A stretch of 61,358 nucleotides of DNA, filler included, from Candidatus Omnitrophota bacterium (GCA_023140385.1; 4 parts of 4 records of this genome joined end to end with filler, not necessarily neighbours in it); one strand, 5' to 3'; counted from the first letter of the whole stretch, positions 12,001 to 18,000 are shown. Numbers are program-made.

Positions 12001-15000
12001 ATTTCTTACCAGCCCTTTGTAGGCGCGATAAAATCCAATTGTCTCCACATTATGATAAAGGGCGCATCTGACGACGCTTCTCAGGGCGGCATTCATTCCT
12101 GAACAGTCACCGCCGCTGGTAATAACTCCGATTCTCTTTATCTTTCTCATTGTTTTATCATCCACAATCCTATCTAAATCCTAAATTCTAAATAAATTCT
12201 AATTTCTAAATTTTAATTTCTAAACATTGTTTTGAATTTTGCATTTTGGACATTTGGCATTGTTTAGTATTTAGTATTTTGCGTTTAGGATTTATTGTTT
12301 ATTTACGTTCCTAACTGCCAGGAGGCTAAATACTCTTTTTGCTCTTGTGTTAATGTATCTATTTGGACACCCATAGCCTTTAATTTTAGGCGGGCAACCT
12401 TCTCGTCGATATTAAGTGGCACTTTATAGACCTGTTTTTTCAAACGGCCCGCGTTTTTCTTAATAAACTCCGAAGTCAGGGCTTGGTTTGCAAAACTCAT
12501 ATCCATAACACTGGCCGGATGGCCTTCAGCCGCGGCCAGGTTAATAAGCCGGCCGTCTCCCAGAACATTTACGCGCCGGCCGTTTTTAAGCGTGTATTCA
12601 TTAACAAATTGCTTCATTTTTCTTGTTTTCTTACTCATTTTTTTAAGGCCTTTGACATTTATCTCAACGTCAAAATGGCCTGAATTAGCTACTATAGCGC
12701 CATCTTTCATTTTAATGAAATGCTTTGTATCAATAACATTTATATCTCCGGTAGTTGAAAGGAAAACATCGCCCTCTTTGGCCGCGCAATCTATGGGCAT
12801 TACCCGATAGCCATCCATTACGGCTTCTAACGCTTTTAGAGGGTCTACCTCGCAAACTATTACATTTGCCCCCATGCCGCTGGCTCTCATCGCGACACCC
12901 CTGCCGCACCAGCCATAGCCGCAAACCACAAACTTACATCCGGAAAGCAGCACGTTTGTCGCTCTTAGGATACCGTCAATAGTTGACTGCCCCGTTCCAT
13001 ACCTGTTGTCAAAAAAATGTTTTGTCTGAGCGTCATTAATAGCAAAAACGGGAAAAAGCAAAAGGCCCTTTTTCTCCAGGCTTCTTAGCCGGATAACTCC
13101 CGTTGTTGTCTCTTCCGTGCCGGCCAGAATGTATTCCGCCAGATTCTGTCTTTTTTTGTGAATCATCGAAACCAAATCAGCCCCGTCATCCATTGTGATG
13201 TTGGGCTTCGCGTCAAGAACCGCGTTTATATGAGAGTAATAGCGCTTGTTATCCTCACCGTTAACCGCGAAGGTCGGAATTTTATAGTCTTTTACCAAAG
13301 AAGCTGTTACTGAATCCTGAGTGCTTAAGGGGTTTGAAGCGCACAGCCGCACATCCGCGCCGCCGGCCTTCAGTGTAATAGCCAGGTTGGCAGTCTCGGT
13401 TGTTACATGCAAACAGCAAGCTATCACGGTTCCCTTAAGAGGCTTTTCCTTTTTAAATCTTTCTCTGATTAATCTTAGTACAGGCATACGCTCTTCGGCC
13501 CATTCAATTCTTAATTTGCCTTCTTTCGCCAGTTTTAAATCTTTAATATCATACTTCATATCTATTCCCTTTCGTTAATTACGCTTGTTTTTTTAAAGCT
13601 GCGGCTTTGTCAGTTTCTTCCCAGCTAAACCCTTCTTCTTCTCTGCCAAAATGGCCATAGGCCGCCGTTTTCTTGTATATTGGGCGCCTCAGGTGAAGCT
13701 CTTCAATTATTCCGCCAGGTGACATATCAAAATTATTCCAGACAAGCTTTTTTATCTGGCTGTCAGAAATTTTACCGGTGCCAAAGGTGTTAATCATCAG
13801 TGATACGGGCTGGACGACCCCTATGGCGTAAGCCAGCTGAATCTCACACTTTTCACACAGTCCGGCCGCTACCACGTTTTTTGCTATATATCTGGCGTAG
13901 TACGACGCGGACCTGTCTACCTTGCTGGGATCTTTGCCGGAGAAAGCGCCGCCGCCATGACTTCCCACACCACCGTAGGTATCAACGATAATCTTTCTTC
14001 CGGTAACACCTGTATCGGCCAATGGCCCGCCAACGGCAAATCTGCCGGTAGGATTAATAAATATCTTTGTCTTGTCGTCCCTTAAATCCGCCGGGATTAT
14101 TTTATCTATTACCAGAGCCTTCAGGTCTTTTCTAATATCTTCTATCTTTGTTCTGGGGCAGTGATGAGCGCTTAACACTACCGCCTCAATCCTTTTGGGC
14201 TTTCCGTTTAAATATTCAACTGTTACCTGGGATTTACCGTCAGGTCTTAAATAACCGACCTTCTTTTCTTTGCGTATCTTACTTAACTGCCGCGTTAACT
14301 TATGAGCCAGCATAATAGGCAGCGGCATCAGCTCTTTAGTCTCATTCGCGGCATAACCAAACATCATTCCCTGGTCACCTGCNNNNNNNNNNNNNNNNNN
14401 NNNNNNNNNNNNNNNNNNNNNNNNNNTTAATTAATTAANNNNNNNNNNNNNNNNNNNNNNNNNNNNNNNNNNNNNNNNNNNNGGATATCTGACTGATGGT
14501 TTTAGCCGGTATTGTGAGAAAAAAGGACTGATAATAGAGCACGTACATACAAGCGGACACGCGACAATAGAAGATTTGCAGGCGTTCGCTAAGGCGTTAA
14601 ATCCCCGGAAGTTAATTCCGATACATACGTTTGAATCGGAAAGATATTCAGATTTATTTGAGAATGTAGAGATTATTAAAGATGAAGAGGCTATAGAGCT
14701 TAAAACGCCATAAATCCTTTTAGGTTTGACGGTTGATTTTTTGTTTTGGAGCTTATCTTATTTTCAGCAGTAATCACGCGACCCGTAGTTAAAAAGCTCT
14801 TGTGTTTATTGCATAATAGGTATATATTACTCTTCAGAGGTATATTGAGGTAAGTGCTTTTTTCTCCATTTTAAAGGAAAAGGAGAAGGTTTGTGGACAA
14901 AAAAACGGAAGGCGTTAGTGTAAGAAGAGAGTCTGATGTTCCGTCTATTTTATCAAAGATACTACATGATAAAAAGATGATAAAAAGGATATTATTTACG

Positions 15001-18000
15001 TTAGGTATAGTGATTGTCTATAAATTATTGACATTTATGCCAATCCCGGGCATTGATATTGAAGCTCTGCGCGCGTCGTTTAATAATTCTGACAATATTG
15101 CGAGAATAAACATTTTTAATGCCGGGGAACTGCGAAGAGTATCAATTTGCGCTTTGGGCCTTATGCCGTATTTCTCTTCTTGTATACTAATTATGATATT
15201 AGGCGCTGTTATTCCGTTCTTTAAAAGATGTTATGCCATGGGAGGGCAAAAAGGTAGAGAGAAGATTGTCAAGAGTACCTATTATTTGACTATCGCGTTG
15301 AGTCTCGTGCAAGGCTATTTTATTAGTCAATGGTTAGAGTCAGCTAACTTTGGCGGCCTTAGTATGGTTATTTCGCCGGGATGGGGTTTTAGAATTATAA
15401 CGGTTTTTTCCTTAACGGCAGGGGTCTTCTTGCTATTATGGTTAGCTAGATTGATAAATGATCATGGTATTGGAAATGGTGTAGCCATTTTAGTACTGTT
15501 TGGAATAGTTCCAAAATTTCTTATTATAATTGGCCAATTTGTTCAACGTGATTTAGCCGGTGGTCAGTTATTCTTTTTGTTAGTAACATTTATCGCTTCC
15601 ATAGCGGTTACGTGGCTGATGTCAACATCAACCCAAAAAGTACCTATTATTTACAATAATTCAAATATAAAAAATTCGATCACATTGCGTTTTAGCTGGA
15701 CAGGTAAAGCTCCTATAGGATTCGCGCAGGTAGTAATTTTTTTTCCGGTAACGATAGCGGCTTTCTGCCCTTGGTTAAATAAATTTGCCACACTAATCTC
15801 ACATGGTGGATGGTTGTATACGATATTGTATTCTATCTCGATTTTATTTTTCGCATATTTCTTAATAGCGGTACTTTTTAGGCCGCGAGAAATAAGCGAT
15901 AAAATGAAAAAGCATGGCTGTCAGATTGAAAATGTGGCATTGGGCAGGGAGACAGCAGAATATTTAAATTCTAAGATGAATAGAAATACAATAGTAACAG
16001 CATTATTTTTGATAGCTGTAGGCATATTGCCGAGTATATATAGTAAGACTGTGTGCAGCGTTTCATATCTAACTATTACTTTTATTAGCTATGCAACTCT
16101 TGTAGTAATAGTAGGAATATTTTATGATTTAAAATGCCAGATAGAGTCTTATTTCGCGATGAAGGAGTCTGATAAAGGCGAGTGGGGCGTTGCTTACGTC
16201 GCGCTTGATGAAATCGAAGCAGAAATTAAAAAGGGATTTCTTGAAACCAAGGACATCCCATGTGTCATAGAACCGTTAAGATTTACCTGGGGTATGCCCA
16301 TAAGAACCGCGGTTGATCAGTATAGATTATATGTTCCGAGTAAAAAACAAGAAGAAGCGGTAAAAATATTAGTACAAAATAGCTAAATTCAAAAAAAGGT
16401 AACTCGTGGACAGAAAAAAATTAGGTAAAAAGATCAAGTTAGCCCGCGTAGAGCTCGACTTAACCCAAACCCAACTTGCTCAAAAAATCAAAGCAAAGCA
16501 GAAAAGTATCTCCCGCTATGAAACAGGAGCAACTTCACCATCCATAAAAACTTTAGTAAAAATCGCAAAGGTGCTCAAAAAATCAGCAGGGCATTTTTTG
16601 GATGAGTGAAGATAGAATATGGCCCTAATTTTCATTACTTGACAACTCTAAAAGTATGGTATGCACTTTAAGTGTGGCGACATTTGTTGCCACATAATAA
16701 AAAGGAGGTCATCATGAGCGCGGTAATTGATTTAATAAAAGCGGAGCATGTAGGGGTAAGAGAATTAAGAGATCACTTGTGTGGATTTATGAAAGACAAA
16801 AAACCGGCCATAGTGGTAACCGAAAGAGGGAAGCCGGTAAGGGTAATTGTGCCTTACGCGAAGATGGTTGAATTGCTGGAATTCTTCGATGAAGTTTCAG
16901 ATCCGAATACTATGAGAAATATCCATGAAGGTATAGAGGCAATTAAACGAGGTTCCAAAGGCGCTTCTTTTTCAGGAACTTATAAAAAATATCATTCAGT
17001 GGGTCAAGCGGTAAAAAAATGAACTACGATATTAGATACCCAACACCAAGGCTGAAAAGATATTTTGACGAATTTCTGCAAAAAAGGATCCATCATAAAA
17101 ATCAGAGGAAAAAAATAGTAGATGAAGTAGGCGCTCTCAGGGGCAATCCTAGGCCATTTCATAAGCCAGAAGGCGATGGTTTGGCTTCCGATAGCCAAAG
17201 CCACAAGAAAGGGTTTACGGAAATCAAACCACCAATACCTGTTTCTTATCATTTAGCGGAATACAGATTAAAAATTGGGGATTATCGGGTTTTGTATAAC
17301 GTAGATGATAAGCAGAAGATCGTCTGGATATTAGATATAAGATTACGCGCGGAGAAAACTTATAGAGGATAGAAAAGAAGAGGTAAAGGTGTCTGTCCCC
17401 GGAATACCAAAGAAAAATACAGGCGTTTTGAAAATTGTTAGGGAAACTGTCCCCTCAGTTGAACCTTCCATATAAGTTTCCTTGAAAAGGCATACAATGA
17501 TTGATAATAAACATAAAGACCCGCTTCATGGCGTTACTTTGAAGATGATTCTCACGCACCTGGTTGAAAAATGTGGGTGGGAAGAGATGTCTAAAAGAAT
17601 CAAGATAGGCTGCTTTACAAAGGATCCTAGCATCAAGTCCAGCCTGATTTTTCTGAGGAGAACCCCATGGGCCAGAAAAAAAGTAGAGAACTTGTACTGT
17701 AGAGAAATTGGGGCCGGGCCCCTGAACGATACGCCCTGTCCCCATATTTCGCGAGAAGGAAAATGAAAAAAATAGATTTTCACAGAAATGCAATATCAAA
17801 AGATGAAATAAATGTTCTGCCGCTTAAATCTTATACTGGTTCTATTCATGTGATAGATTCGGACGCGAAGATGAGCGCGGCCGTGCAAGTTCTCGGTGGT
17901 GAGAAAATCCTGGGTTTTGATACAGAGACGAGACCCGTTTTTAAGAAAGGCGAATCTTATCCGCCTTCACTTATCCAGCTTGCCGCGAGTGACGGGGTAT

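What a model noticed while it worked through the whole genome (the two positions that open the first line are those of the whole stretch)
14893..16386. Second, divergent SecY with a conserved C-terminal cytoplasmic domain
Beside the ribosomal-operon SecY (C13:8826, 443 aa) the genome has a second SecY, g01119 (C37:411-1904, 497 aa, 31% identical to the first), that carries a ~65-residue C-terminal beta-alpha-beta-beta-alpha domain which is the best conserved part of the protein, and it lies alone at the edge of a defence/mobile island with no SecA2 or Asp partner. Boldest reading: this is a new kind of accessory translocon whose channel is gated or targeted through its own cytoplasmic PII/DUF2007-like domain, a possible SRP-independent docking device. 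New: a SecY paralogue family outside the Gram-positive SecA2/SecY2 systems, about 20 known members only.
Evidence so far: blastp g01119 vs g00520 31% over 419 aa. In 5.8 billion proteins only 19 clusters match over 90-99% of the length at 33-67% identity (470-540 aa); the other hits are ordinary SecY at ~30% over the channel part only. Alignment of the 19: invariant E440 E442 A443 L450 I455 E460 P461 R463 T465 W466 G467 I470 T472 D475 Y477 R478 in the tail against 19 invariant columns in the 430-residue channel. AlphaFold2 with that alignment: pTM 0.78, SecY fold plus tail E431-437 H440-452 E458-462 E476-482 H483-495 at pLDDT ~90; weak Pfam DUF2007 (E 0.017, call 95). PF00344: 2 copies in G000 and in 1 of 24 other Omnitrophota genomes. 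Six related loci in GTDB genomes show no shared neighbour gene.
(Added by a program. Inside this text positions count along the whole contig: they may not be those of the stretch shown here. "Call 12" and the like, gene names such as g00115 and contig names such as C1 are that model's own, and its searches are not shown. The text may have been shortened before it was handed on; [...] marks where a part breaks off. The agent that wrote the report below was given it as the finding of a first reader that could run no searches.)

Follow-up and report, generated by a model that had tools for sequence, protein, structure and literature searches.

The report
Self-plugged second SecY channel
This small uncultured bacterium carries, beside its normal protein-export channel SecY, a rare second SecY that has lost the usual docking loops for ribosome and motor and carries its own small end domain, which models place like a cork in the channel's inner mouth.

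Summary
Window 14893-16386 (+) encodes a 497-aa protein with a full SecY channel (Pfam E 9e-59) and a 70-aa C-terminal beta-alpha-beta-beta-alpha domain that is the best conserved part of a rare family. It was found in 15 of 401 Omnitrophota genomes searched, and in two genomes of a second phylum.

New here:
- The family lacks the universal C5-loop Arg motif and the tip of the C4 hairpin, which are the ribosome/SecA/FtsY docking sites. Its Ile pore ring is relaxed.
- The tail is a divergent DUF2007 domain.
- Natural fusions exist to SecE (C-terminal) and to a SecD P1-head (N-terminal).
- Both channel and tail are under purifying selection.
- Complex modelling (0.77; best control 0.00) puts the invariant tail loop EPLRFTWGMPIRT into the cytoplasmic funnel, touching pore-ring residues.

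Best reading: an accessory SecYE-type channel, uncoupled from ribosome and SecA, closed or gated from the cytosolic side by its own domain. The substrate is unknown, no gene partner is conserved, and there is no link to the lack of SRP. It is a new variant of a known kind.

The parts
14881..14885 (+). Shine-Dalgarno-like AGGAG, 7 nt before the GTG start
   Evidence: read
14893..16386 (+). gene for the 497-aa SecY paralogue with C-terminal domain (stop codon included)
   Evidence: Pfam SecY E 8.9e-59; NCBIfam SecY 207.1 bits, below the 253.6 cut-off
14977..16173 (+). SecY channel part, residues 29-427, ten transmembrane helices
   Evidence: aligned to solved SecY chains at E 2.8e-55 to 8.9e-41; AF2 pLDDT 92.0; Foldseek best E 6.7e-21 to SecY structures
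15181..15183 (+). Cys97 in TM2b, a family-specific near-invariant residue (canonical SecY has Ser)
   Evidence: Cys in 77 of 78 family members against Ser in 96 of 100 canonical SecY; in the predicted interface with the tail
15631..15708 (+). shortened C4 (TM6-TM7) hairpin, residues 247-272
   Evidence: segment median 21 residues in the family against 29 in canonical SecY; an 8-residue gap against E. coli SecY
15718..15720 (+). Gly276 at the TM7 pore-ring position (E. coli I278 by the alignment)
   Evidence: Ile in 99 of 100 canonical SecY; family has G22 V11 S11 T6 L6 and others
15913..15960 (+). degenerate C5 (TM8-TM9) loop HGCQIENVALGRETAE, where canonical SecY has GxxxPG(I/V)(R/K)PGxxT
   Evidence: Arg/Lys column: 98 of 100 canonical, 0 Arg in the family; E. 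coli R357 aligns to Ala
16174..16383 (+). C-terminal DUF2007-like domain, residues 428-497 (beta-alpha-beta-beta-alpha)
   Evidence: The tail profile finds standalone DUF2007 proteins. It is the most conserved region of the family, 0.64
16264..16320 (+). beta2-beta3 loop VIEPLRFTWGMPIRTAVDQ (residues 458-476), the predicted plug of the cytoplasmic funnel
   Evidence: W466 in 78 of 78 and P461 in 78 of 78. It contacts residues 94, 96-98, 194-198, 201, 404-412 and 415-416 of the channel in the model
16406..16609 (+). 67-aa HTH_3 (XRE-type) regulator gene 20 bases downstream; not conserved beside relatives
   Evidence: Pfam E 3.3e-15; absent from the other loci's neighbourhoods
14483..14713 (+). 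3' end of an upstream gene cut by the contig end (RMMBL domain of a metallo-beta-lactamase-fold RNase-type hydrolase)
   Evidence: Pfam RMMBL E 5.1e-08; contig start read

Best explanation
The gene encodes an accessory SecY-type channel of a rare, old and fast-evolving paralogue family. SHOWN: it keeps the ten-helix SecY fold. SHOWN: it has lost the two cytosolic loops that canonical SecY uses to dock ribosome, SecA and FtsY, namely the C4 hairpin tip and the C5 PG(I/V)(R/K)PG motif. Its isoleucine pore ring is relaxed. It carries a C-terminal DUF2007-type domain that is the most conserved part of the protein. INFERRED: it pairs with the cell's single SecE, because some relatives have SecE fused behind the tail. 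It handles polypeptides, because one relative has a SecD P1-head fused in front. PREDICTED by two modelling programs: the tail sits on the platform left by the trimmed C2/C4/C5 loops. Its invariant beta2-beta3 loop (L462, F464, W466 and neighbours) reaches down the cytoplasmic funnel to the pore ring, where SecA's two-helix finger or a substrate would otherwise go. SPECULATIVE: the channel is therefore shut from the cytosolic side in its ground state, and opens only when the DUF2007 domain is moved by a ligand or partner not yet identified. The substrate is unknown.
For: Fold: Pfam SecY E 8.9e-59; AF2 pLDDT 92.0, pTM 0.91; Foldseek to SecY structures, best E 6.7e-21.

Lost docking loops: the C5 Arg/Lys column is R81/K17 of 100 canonical SecY, against no Arg in 78 family members. 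The motif G[IVLMT]RPG occurs in 0 of 76 family members and 49 of 102 canonical. The C4 segment has a median of 21 residues against 29. C4 and C5 lose the most conservation relative to canonical SecY, 0.36 vs 0.68 and 0.31 vs 0.66. Passages of PMC4602035 and PMC8082313 state that C4/C5 are major binding sites of ribosome, FtsY, SecA and Syd.

Pore ring: positions that are Ile in 97-99 of 100 canonical SecY are mixed in the family. The TM7 position reads G22 V11 S11 T6 L6.

Tail: 16 invariant columns in 70 residues. The tail profile finds 88 proteins in 1.84 billion, 61 of them 423-624 aa with the match near the C-terminus (P0190 and P0183 carry SecE behind it). It also finds standalone 63-101-aa proteins, of which P0196 and P0201 pass the Pfam DUF2007 cut-off.

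Fusions: P0190 has SecE at 36.3 bits (Pfam) and 33.4 bits (TIGR00964), both above cut-off. L025 has SecDF_P1_head at 46.7 bits.

Selection: dN/dS is 0.12-0.35 for the channel and 0.05-0.55 for the tail, in pairs below 90% identity.

Docking: ipSAE 0.77 (runs 0.77/0.78/0.77), best of 3 controls 0.00. That mark was reached by 116 of 157 solved complexes and 2 of 215 mismatched pairs. The runs agree in at least 97% of contacts and the partner's pLDDT is at least 81. Tail residues 31-49 touch channel residues 94, 96-98, 100-101, 194-198, 201, 404-412 and 415-416. The loop's pLDDT rises from 67-79 in the tail modelled alone to 96-98 in the full-length model. Of 23 channel positions conserved at 85% or more in the family, 11 lie in the predicted interface (odds ratio 5.6, p 2e-4).
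Against: The plug is a model, not a measurement. The complex job differed from its calibration: it used three chains, my own alignments, and two pieces of one polypeptide. I could not inspect coordinates of the AF2 model.

Many interface residues (GIGNG, G408, D412, Q416) are also conserved in canonical SecY, so co-conservation is weak proof. Interface pairs vary too little to show covariation.

The AF2 channel superposes better on substrate-engaged SecA-SecY structures (TM 0.83-0.87, rmsd 2.7-4.2) than on resting SecYEG (0.73, rmsd 5.2). That fits a wedged-open state as well as a closed one, though the compared species differ.

No partner, ligand or substrate is known, and no neighbour is conserved.

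Two relatives are deletion remnants (L006, L007), so the gene is dispensable in some lineages.

Loss of ribosome and SecA binding is inferred from loop loss, not tested.
Confidence: 0.5

Rival explanations
1. The tail is an outward-facing docking or sensing platform. It recruits a dedicated motor, chaperone, ribosome or small ligand to an otherwise ordinary accessory translocon, and the funnel insertion is a modelling artefact.
For: DUF2007 belongs with PII-like small alpha/beta domains. The fold matches 2HFV at Z 7.1 and PII, PstA and CutA at Z 5-6. The loss of the C4/C5 docking loops calls for some replacement. One face of the domain stays free in the model, since only residues 2-49, 53 and 69-70 are in the interface.
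Against: No conserved neighbour or second SecA that could be the partner. The invariant loop is the part the model buries in the channel, with controls at 0.00. The loop is poorly ordered when the tail is modelled alone and well ordered in the full protein.
Confidence: 0.2
2. The tail loop is a built-in pseudo-substrate that holds the channel permanently primed, with the lateral gate open. The protein then works as an insertase or chaperone for membrane proteins, or as a conduit for something other than unfolded secretory proteins.
For: The AF2 channel is closest to substrate-engaged SecY: TM 0.83-0.87 and rmsd 2.7-4.2, against 0.73 and 5.2 for the resting state. The pore ring is relaxed and the periplasmic plug region is poorly conserved, 0.26 against 0.42. 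An extra N-terminal transmembrane segment occurs in 44 of 78 members and in 0 of 100 canonical SecY.
Against: The structures compared come from different species, so state and lineage are confounded. The SecD P1-head and SecE fusions point to ordinary polypeptide export machinery. There is no direct evidence on the gate.
Confidence: 0.15
3. It is a decaying or selfish duplicate with no function of its own.
For: Patchy distribution: 15 of 401 genomes in its phylum, and 2 of 301 in a second phylum. Two deletion remnants exist. The score is below the SecY equivalog cut-off.
Against: dN/dS is well below 1 in both parts. Full-length open frames occur in 12 Omnitrophota genomes and many metagenome loci. 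There are 16 invariant tail columns across 28-67% identical proteins. No relative was found on viral contigs: 12 pattern matches, none confirmed.
Confidence: 0.05
4. It is a membrane effector of an anti-phage or toxin-antitoxin system, that is, a pore opened on infection.
For: In this window it lies next to an HTH_3 gene, Phd/ParE, AbiEi/AbiEii, a Hypoth_Ymh/PD-Lambda-3_B-like gene, a HerA-like ATPase and a methyltransferase. A cytosolic plug on a pore would suit a triggered effector.
Against: No PADLOC family matches it. The neighbourhoods in the other loci are varied, for example DnaX/RecR, FeoAB, SNF and Na/H transporters. No relative was found on viral contigs.
Confidence: 0.05

Closest known systems
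Housekeeping bacterial SecY (SecYEG translocon; NCBIfam TIGR00967, Pfam PF00344)
   Same: Ten-helix SecY fold. GIGNG motif, TM2b Gln, TM10 Gly/Asp/Gln and the P-x-x-FA of TM7 are kept. It probably uses SecE, given natural SecY-tail-SecE fusions.
   Different: 31% identity to the cell's own SecY. It scores 207.1 bits against a cut-off of 253.6, whereas the own SecY scores 407.8. It is not in the ribosomal operon. The C5 Arg motif and C4 hairpin tip are lost, the pore ring is relaxed, and Cys97 replaces Ser. It has an added DUF2007-like tail and, in 44 of 78 members, an extra N-terminal membrane segment.
Accessory SecY2 of Gram-positive SecA2/SecY2-Asp systems
   Same: A second, divergent SecY beside the housekeeping one, presumably for special substrates. 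The abstract of PMC5076819, seen in the listing, describes SecY2 with SecA2 and Asp1-5.
   Different: It scores 100.0 and 107.2 bits against SecY2 cut-offs of 249.6 and 353. There is one SecA in the genome. No Asp or serine-rich-repeat genes lie nearby. The phyla differ. I know of no such tail in SecY2 (recalled, not tested).
DUF2007 (PF09413; solved example 2HFV), a PII-like small domain of unknown function
   Same: Same order of secondary structure. The tail profile retrieves standalone 63-101-aa proteins, of which P0196 and P0201 pass the DUF2007 cut-off. The nearest Atlas clusters are DUF2007, score 0.86. VIA gives Z 7.1 to 2HFV.
   Different: The direct Pfam score is only 16.2 bits against a cut-off of 25.7. 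The beta2-beta3 loop (R/Q)F(T/S)WG(M/L/I)PIRT is specific to the SecY-fused form. No function is published for DUF2007: 6 papers hold the word, 5 were listed, and none appears from its title or abstract to be a functional study.
SecA two-helix finger and Syd, known occupants of SecY's cytosolic face
   Same: Passages of PMC8082313 describe the two-helix finger inserting into the cytoplasmic vestibule, and Syd binding the C4/C5 loops exclusively of SecA. The modelled tail does both at once: it sits on C2/C4/C5 and reaches into the vestibule.
   Different: Here the occupant is part of the same polypeptide, has an unrelated fold and has no ATPase.
Ring-building motif domains of PrgK/EscJ (type III secretion inner ring)
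   Same: These are the best structural matches of the isolated tail: Z 8.1-9.1, rmsd 1.5-1.7 over 56-58 residues, and Foldseek TM 0.71-0.73.
   Different: Foldseek E-values are only 0.04-0.2 and identity is 13-24%. This is a common small alpha/beta arrangement. Those domains are periplasmic and form rings, and nothing here shows ring formation.

Membership tests
Canonical SecY (TIGR00967 equivalog) | Score above NCBI's curated equivalog cut-off | tested here: not met
   207.1 bits against 253.6; the genome's other SecY scores 407.8
Canonical SecY (TIGR00967 equivalog) | SecY domain and ten-helix fold | tested here: met
   Pfam PF00344 at 199.8 bits against a cut-off of 32.2; Foldseek E 6.7e-21 to SecY structures
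Canonical SecY (TIGR00967 equivalog) | C5-loop PG(I/V)(R/K)PG with the conserved Arg (E. coli R357), and a full-length C4 hairpin | tested here: not met
   R/K in 98 of 100 canonical SecY against 0 Arg in 78 family members; C4 median 21 against 29 residues
Canonical SecY (TIGR00967 equivalog) | Pore ring of six bulky hydrophobic (Ile) residues | tested here: inconclusive
   Five of six positions are hydrophobic in this protein (L90, F94, V197, V201, V405), but the TM7 position is Gly. Across the family the positions are mixed where canonical SecY is 97-99% Ile
Canonical SecY (TIGR00967 equivalog) | Partnership with SecE | tested here: inconclusive
   Two relatives carry SecE fused C-terminally (P0190 above cut-off, P0183 below). 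There is one SecE gene in this genome. Binding was not measured. SecE was included in the complex job but was not the scored chain
Accessory SecY2 (TIGR02920 / NF009082) | Score above the SecY2 equivalog cut-offs | tested here: not met
   100.0 against 249.6, and 107.2 against 353
Accessory SecY2 (TIGR02920 / NF009082) | A second SecA (SecA2) in the genome | tested here: not met
   One SecA_DEAD match in a 92.69% complete genome
Accessory SecY2 (TIGR02920 / NF009082) | Asp1-3 and serine-rich glycoprotein genes beside it | tested here: not met
   No such Pfam families among 13 window neighbours or 74 neighbours of related loci. Upstream context in the window is cut by the contig end
DUF2007 (PF09413) | Score above Pfam's gathering cut-off | tested here: not met
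   16.2 bits against 25.7, E 0.012, covering only residues 11-36 of the tail
DUF2007 (PF09413) | Homology through intermediates | tested here: met
   The tail profile hits P0196 (E 1.0e-4) and P0201 (E 8.0e-4) in 1.84 billion proteins. These score 30.9 and 30.5 bits for DUF2007, above the cut-off
DUF2007 (PF09413) | Fold like the solved member 2HFV | tested here: inconclusive
   VIA Z 7.1, rmsd 4.5 over 67 residues; Foldseek E 0.16
PII signal proteins | Trimer with ligand-binding T-loop | not tested
   Only weak fold likeness, Z 5-6. Oligomer state and ligands were not examined

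The most novel reading that the evidence does not exclude
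A SecY-derived membrane channel that has given up ribosome and SecA, and is corked from the cytosolic side by its own PII-like DUF2007 domain. A metabolite or partner would pull the cork, making it a ligand-gated protein-conducting (or other) pore. This would also give the first function for DUF2007.
Probability: 0.3. Interest if true: 0.85.

Novelty: new variant of a known kind. Interest (0 to 1): 0.74.

Why it matters
SecY/Sec61 is the universal protein-conducting channel, and it is known to be opened from outside by ribosome, SecA or Sec63. A natural SecY that has dropped those docking sites and carries its own funnel-filling domain would be a new way of controlling the channel. It would also be a natural experiment on what the pore ring and cytosolic loops are for. 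It would give a first functional handle on DUF2007, a widespread domain with no known role. The SecE and SecD-head fusions give testable partners. The family is small and easy to clone, so structure and electrophysiology could settle the question.

Tried and rejected
- Conserved gene partner: 340 ORFs of 34 loci (WIN included) were clustered. No neighbour is shared beyond close relatives; the widest cluster spans 5 closely related loci.
- Phage origin: 12 pattern matches on viral contigs, none a relative.
- Known defence family: no PADLOC match.
- Covariation across the predicted interface: the columns are too conserved to tell.
- Promoter and terminator scan: counts were near the shuffled expectation, 12 against 9.3 and 4 against 2.0.
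- Rfam: no match in the window.
- Expression: no RNA holder listed. The DNA holders X1-X4 belong to one study and may be the source. No reads were laid.
- Literature: DUF2007 gave 6 papers (5 listed), none apparently a functional study by title or abstract. 'Omnitrophota' with 'signal recognition particle' gave 0 papers. The SecY paralogue terms gave only Gram-positive SecY2, plastid and mitochondrial cases. Passages of bioRxiv 10.1101/202358 and PMC7203096 held nothing on this family.
- Open or closed state of the modelled channel could not be decided, because resting and engaged reference structures come from different species.
- A link to the missing SRP is rejected: carriers exist both with and without SRP.

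Full report
**The observation.** Window 14893-16386 (+) is an open frame of 497 codons that starts with GTG, 7 nt after AGGAG. Residues 84-412 match Pfam SecY at E 8.9e-59. The window is several contigs joined by N spacers. The gene's contig (G000:C37) begins at window 14483, so only the last 76 codons of an upstream RMMBL-type hydrolase gene are seen.

The genome has 1,495,458 bases in 57 contigs and is 92.69% complete. It holds two SecY matches. The other one, on C13, lies in an S5-L15-SecY-Adk-Map operon and scores 407.8 bits for the SecY equivalog against a cut-off of 253.6. The two proteins are 31% identical over 419 residues. The genome has one SecA, one SecE and one YidC.

**The family.** A search of 5.8 billion proteins gave 19 clusters covering 90-99% of the length at 28-67% identity. 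The remaining listed hits are ordinary SecY at 66-83% coverage.

- A profile of 26 tails found 88 representatives (50% clusters) among 1.84 billion proteins. Of these, 61 are 423-624 aa, with the match near the C-terminus; P0190 and P0183 carry SecE behind it.
- 28 metagenome loci and 5 genome loci encode relatives.
- Within the window's phylum, 15 of 401 genomes searched have a match, 12 of them with frames of 477-543 aa.
- In the phylum of locus L004, only the two genomes already known, of 301, have the SecY-fused form.
- No relative was found on viral contigs.

In a FastTree of 94 rows, the 50 truly canonical SecY form one clade at 100% local support, and every tail-bearing protein falls outside it. 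Two rows I had labelled canonical, P0171 and P0195, are tail-profile hits that my motif filter missed.

**What differs from canonical SecY.** I aligned the protein to E. coli SecY (5abb_A) and compared 78 family members with 100 canonical sequences.
- The C5-loop column of E. coli R357 is R or K in 98 of 100 canonical SecY. No family member has Arg there, and the flanking Pro, Gly and Thr (96-99% conserved) are also gone.
- The C4 hairpin is 8 residues shorter, median 21 against 29.
- Pore-ring positions that are Ile in 97-99 of 100 canonical SecY are mixed in the family. The TM7 position is Gly in this protein.
- Cys97 replaces a 96% conserved Ser. Tyr130 replaces a 97% conserved Arg.

Region by region, C4 and C5 lose the most conservation, 0.36 against 0.68 and 0.31 against 0.66. 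The tail is the most conserved region of all, at 0.64. Passages of PMC4602035 and PMC8082313 state that C4 and C5 are major binding sites of ribosome, FtsY, SecA and Syd. They also state that six isoleucines form the E. coli pore ring. That this paralogue no longer docks ribosome or SecA in the usual way is my inference from these losses. An extra N-terminal hydrophobic segment occurs in 44 of 78 members and 0 of 100 canonical SecY; the window's protein lacks it.

**The tail.** Modelled alone it folds as E4-10, H13-25, E31-37, E46-55, H56-69 with pLDDT 83.8, and 67-79 in the beta2-beta3 loop. Its direct Pfam match to DUF2007 is weak, 16.2 bits. However, the tail profile retrieves standalone proteins of 63-101 aa, and two of these pass the DUF2007 cut-off. 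The nearest Atlas clusters are DUF2007 at score 0.86, which is only a lead. Structural neighbours are PrgK/EscJ ring-building domains (Z 8.1-9.1) and the DUF2007 structure 2HFV (Z 7.1). These are middling scores for a common small fold. No function for DUF2007 turned up in the library: 6 papers hold the word, 5 were listed, and none appears from its title or abstract to be a functional study.

**Evidence that it is a working part of the Sec machinery.**
- P0190 (583 aa) is SecY + tail + SecE. The SecE part scores 36.3 bits in Pfam and 33.4 bits for TIGR00964, both above cut-off. P0183 is similar but weaker.
- The L025 protein (715 aa) has a SecDF P1-head domain (46.7 bits) ahead of the extra membrane segment and the channel.
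- P0136 has three N-terminal zinc ribbons.
- The topologies fit: a periplasmic head, then TM0, then a SecY whose tail and SecE N-terminus are cytosolic.
- Pairwise dN/dS is 0.12-0.35 for the channel and 0.05-0.55 for the tail, in pairs below 90% identity. Both parts are therefore under purifying selection.

Against indispensability, two loci are deletion remnants. L007 keeps the first 17 codons, an in-frame TAG, and an intact 66-codon tail. L006 keeps a start piece, a frameshift, and TM10 plus the tail.

**How the tail sits.** With a 65-sequence alignment, AlphaFold2 gives pLDDT 92.0 and pTM 0.91. The tail, including its loop, scores 94-98, whereas the loop scored 67-79 when modelled alone.

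A complex job was run with the channel (1-427), the cell's SecE, and the tail as the scored partner. It gave ipSAE 0.77/0.78/0.77 against a best control of 0.00. That mark was reached by 116 of 157 solved complexes and 2 of 215 mismatches. The runs agree in at least 97% of contacts, and the partner's pLDDT is at least 81. The tool warns that this job differs from its calibration.

The confident contacts put tail residues 31-49 (protein residues 458-476, VIEPLRFTWGMPIRTAVDQ) against three parts of the channel:
- TM2b residues 94, 96-98 and 100-101;
- TM5 residues 194-198 and 201;
- TM10 residues 404-412 and 415-416.

This set includes the pore-ring positions F94, V197, V201 and V405, and Cys97. 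Helix 1 of the tail lies on C2, C4 and C5. Of 23 channel positions conserved at 85% or more in the family, 11 lie in this interface (odds ratio 5.6, p 2e-4). Of 24 positions where the family has abandoned a 90% conserved canonical residue, 8 lie in it (p 0.025). No solved complex of this kind exists that the model could have recalled, but this remains a prediction. The modelled channel superposes best on substrate-engaged SecA-SecY structures. That leaves open whether the loop closes the channel or wedges it open.

**Context and the SRP idea.** In this window the gene is followed by an HTH_3 gene, Phd/ParE, an exonuclease and PIF1 helicase, a GTPase, AbiEi/AbiEii, a Hypoth_Ymh protein, a HerA-like ATPase and a methyltransferase. 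Elsewhere the neighbours are varied, and none is shared beyond close relatives.

The genome lacks any SRP54 M-domain match, any full SRP54 GTPase-domain match (best 18.6 bits, below the 22.7 cut-off) and any SRP RNA match. The same holds across the phylum. The M domain was found in 0 of 151 genomes. A full GTPase-domain match was found in 1 of 81 genomes at least 90% complete. Controls matched in 14 of 14 genomes. Since only 15 of 401 genomes carry this SecY, and the two carriers of another phylum have SRP, the gene is not the phylum's answer to missing SRP.

**Verdict.** The best reading is an accessory SecYE-type channel that is uncoupled from ribosome and SecA, with its cytoplasmic funnel occupied by the invariant loop of its own DUF2007-like domain. 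This is a new variant of a known kind. The substrate, the trigger, and whether the loop closes or primes the channel remain open.

Noticed in passing
whole genome G000 and its phylum (genome search): No SRP pathway was detected. In G000 there was no SRP54 M-domain match, no full SRP54 GTPase-domain match (best 18.6 bits, below cut-off) and no SRP RNA match. The M domain was found in 0 of 151 Omnitrophota genomes. A full-length SRP54-type GTPase domain was found in 1 of 81 genomes at least 90% complete. Controls matched in 14 of 14. No paper in the library holds both 'Omnitrophota' and 'signal recognition particle'. A phylum without SRP and FtsY would be remarkable and deserves its own study.
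   Followed up: partly
L007 9947-10201 (= G243:C2): A remnant of the gene: 17 codons of the N-terminal membrane segment, an in-frame TAG, then an intact 66-codon tail with all conserved residues. The whole channel is deleted. It could be a recent pseudogene or a membrane-anchored tail made by read-through; this was not resolved.
   Followed up: partly
L006 532-1000: A second remnant: an N-terminal piece, a frameshift, then TM10 plus the tail as a 146-aa frame, next to a nucleotidyltransferase/HEPN pair.
   Followed up: no
proteins P0190, P0183: Natural SecY + DUF2007-like tail + SecE fusions. In the tree they branch next to canonical SecY with 90% local support.
   Followed up: partly
L025 9296-11443: A 715-aa family member with an N-terminal signal-like segment and a SecDF P1-head domain ahead of the channel.
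   Followed up: partly
L026 1208-1552: Directly downstream of a family member lies a 114-aa protein that by eye looks like a DUF2007-type domain followed by a membrane helix. Pfam gave no supporting match.
   Followed up: no
L004, L005, L020, L022, L024, L033: Thiol and redox genes recur beside some members. A CMD/AhpD-like gene lies two genes downstream in five related loci, and DsbD plus AhpC/TSA lie downstream in L033. The family has a near-invariant Cys97. This may be coincidence.
   Followed up: no
window 16672-28188: A run of defence and mobile-type genes downstream: Phd/ParE, 3'-5' exonuclease plus PIF1 helicase, AbiEi/AbiEii, a Hypoth_Ymh (PD-Lambda-3_B-like) protein, a HerA-like ATPase and a type II methyltransferase.
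   Followed up: partly
window 14384-14482: The window is made of separate contigs joined by runs of N around TTAATTAATTAA. Genes on either side of such a joint are not neighbours in the genome.
   Followed up: yes
L007 / G243: The public record of L007 is titled 'Planctomycetales'. The same place was returned as G243 in the search of the window's own phylum. Record titles of these loci may therefore not reflect the phylum.
   Followed up: no
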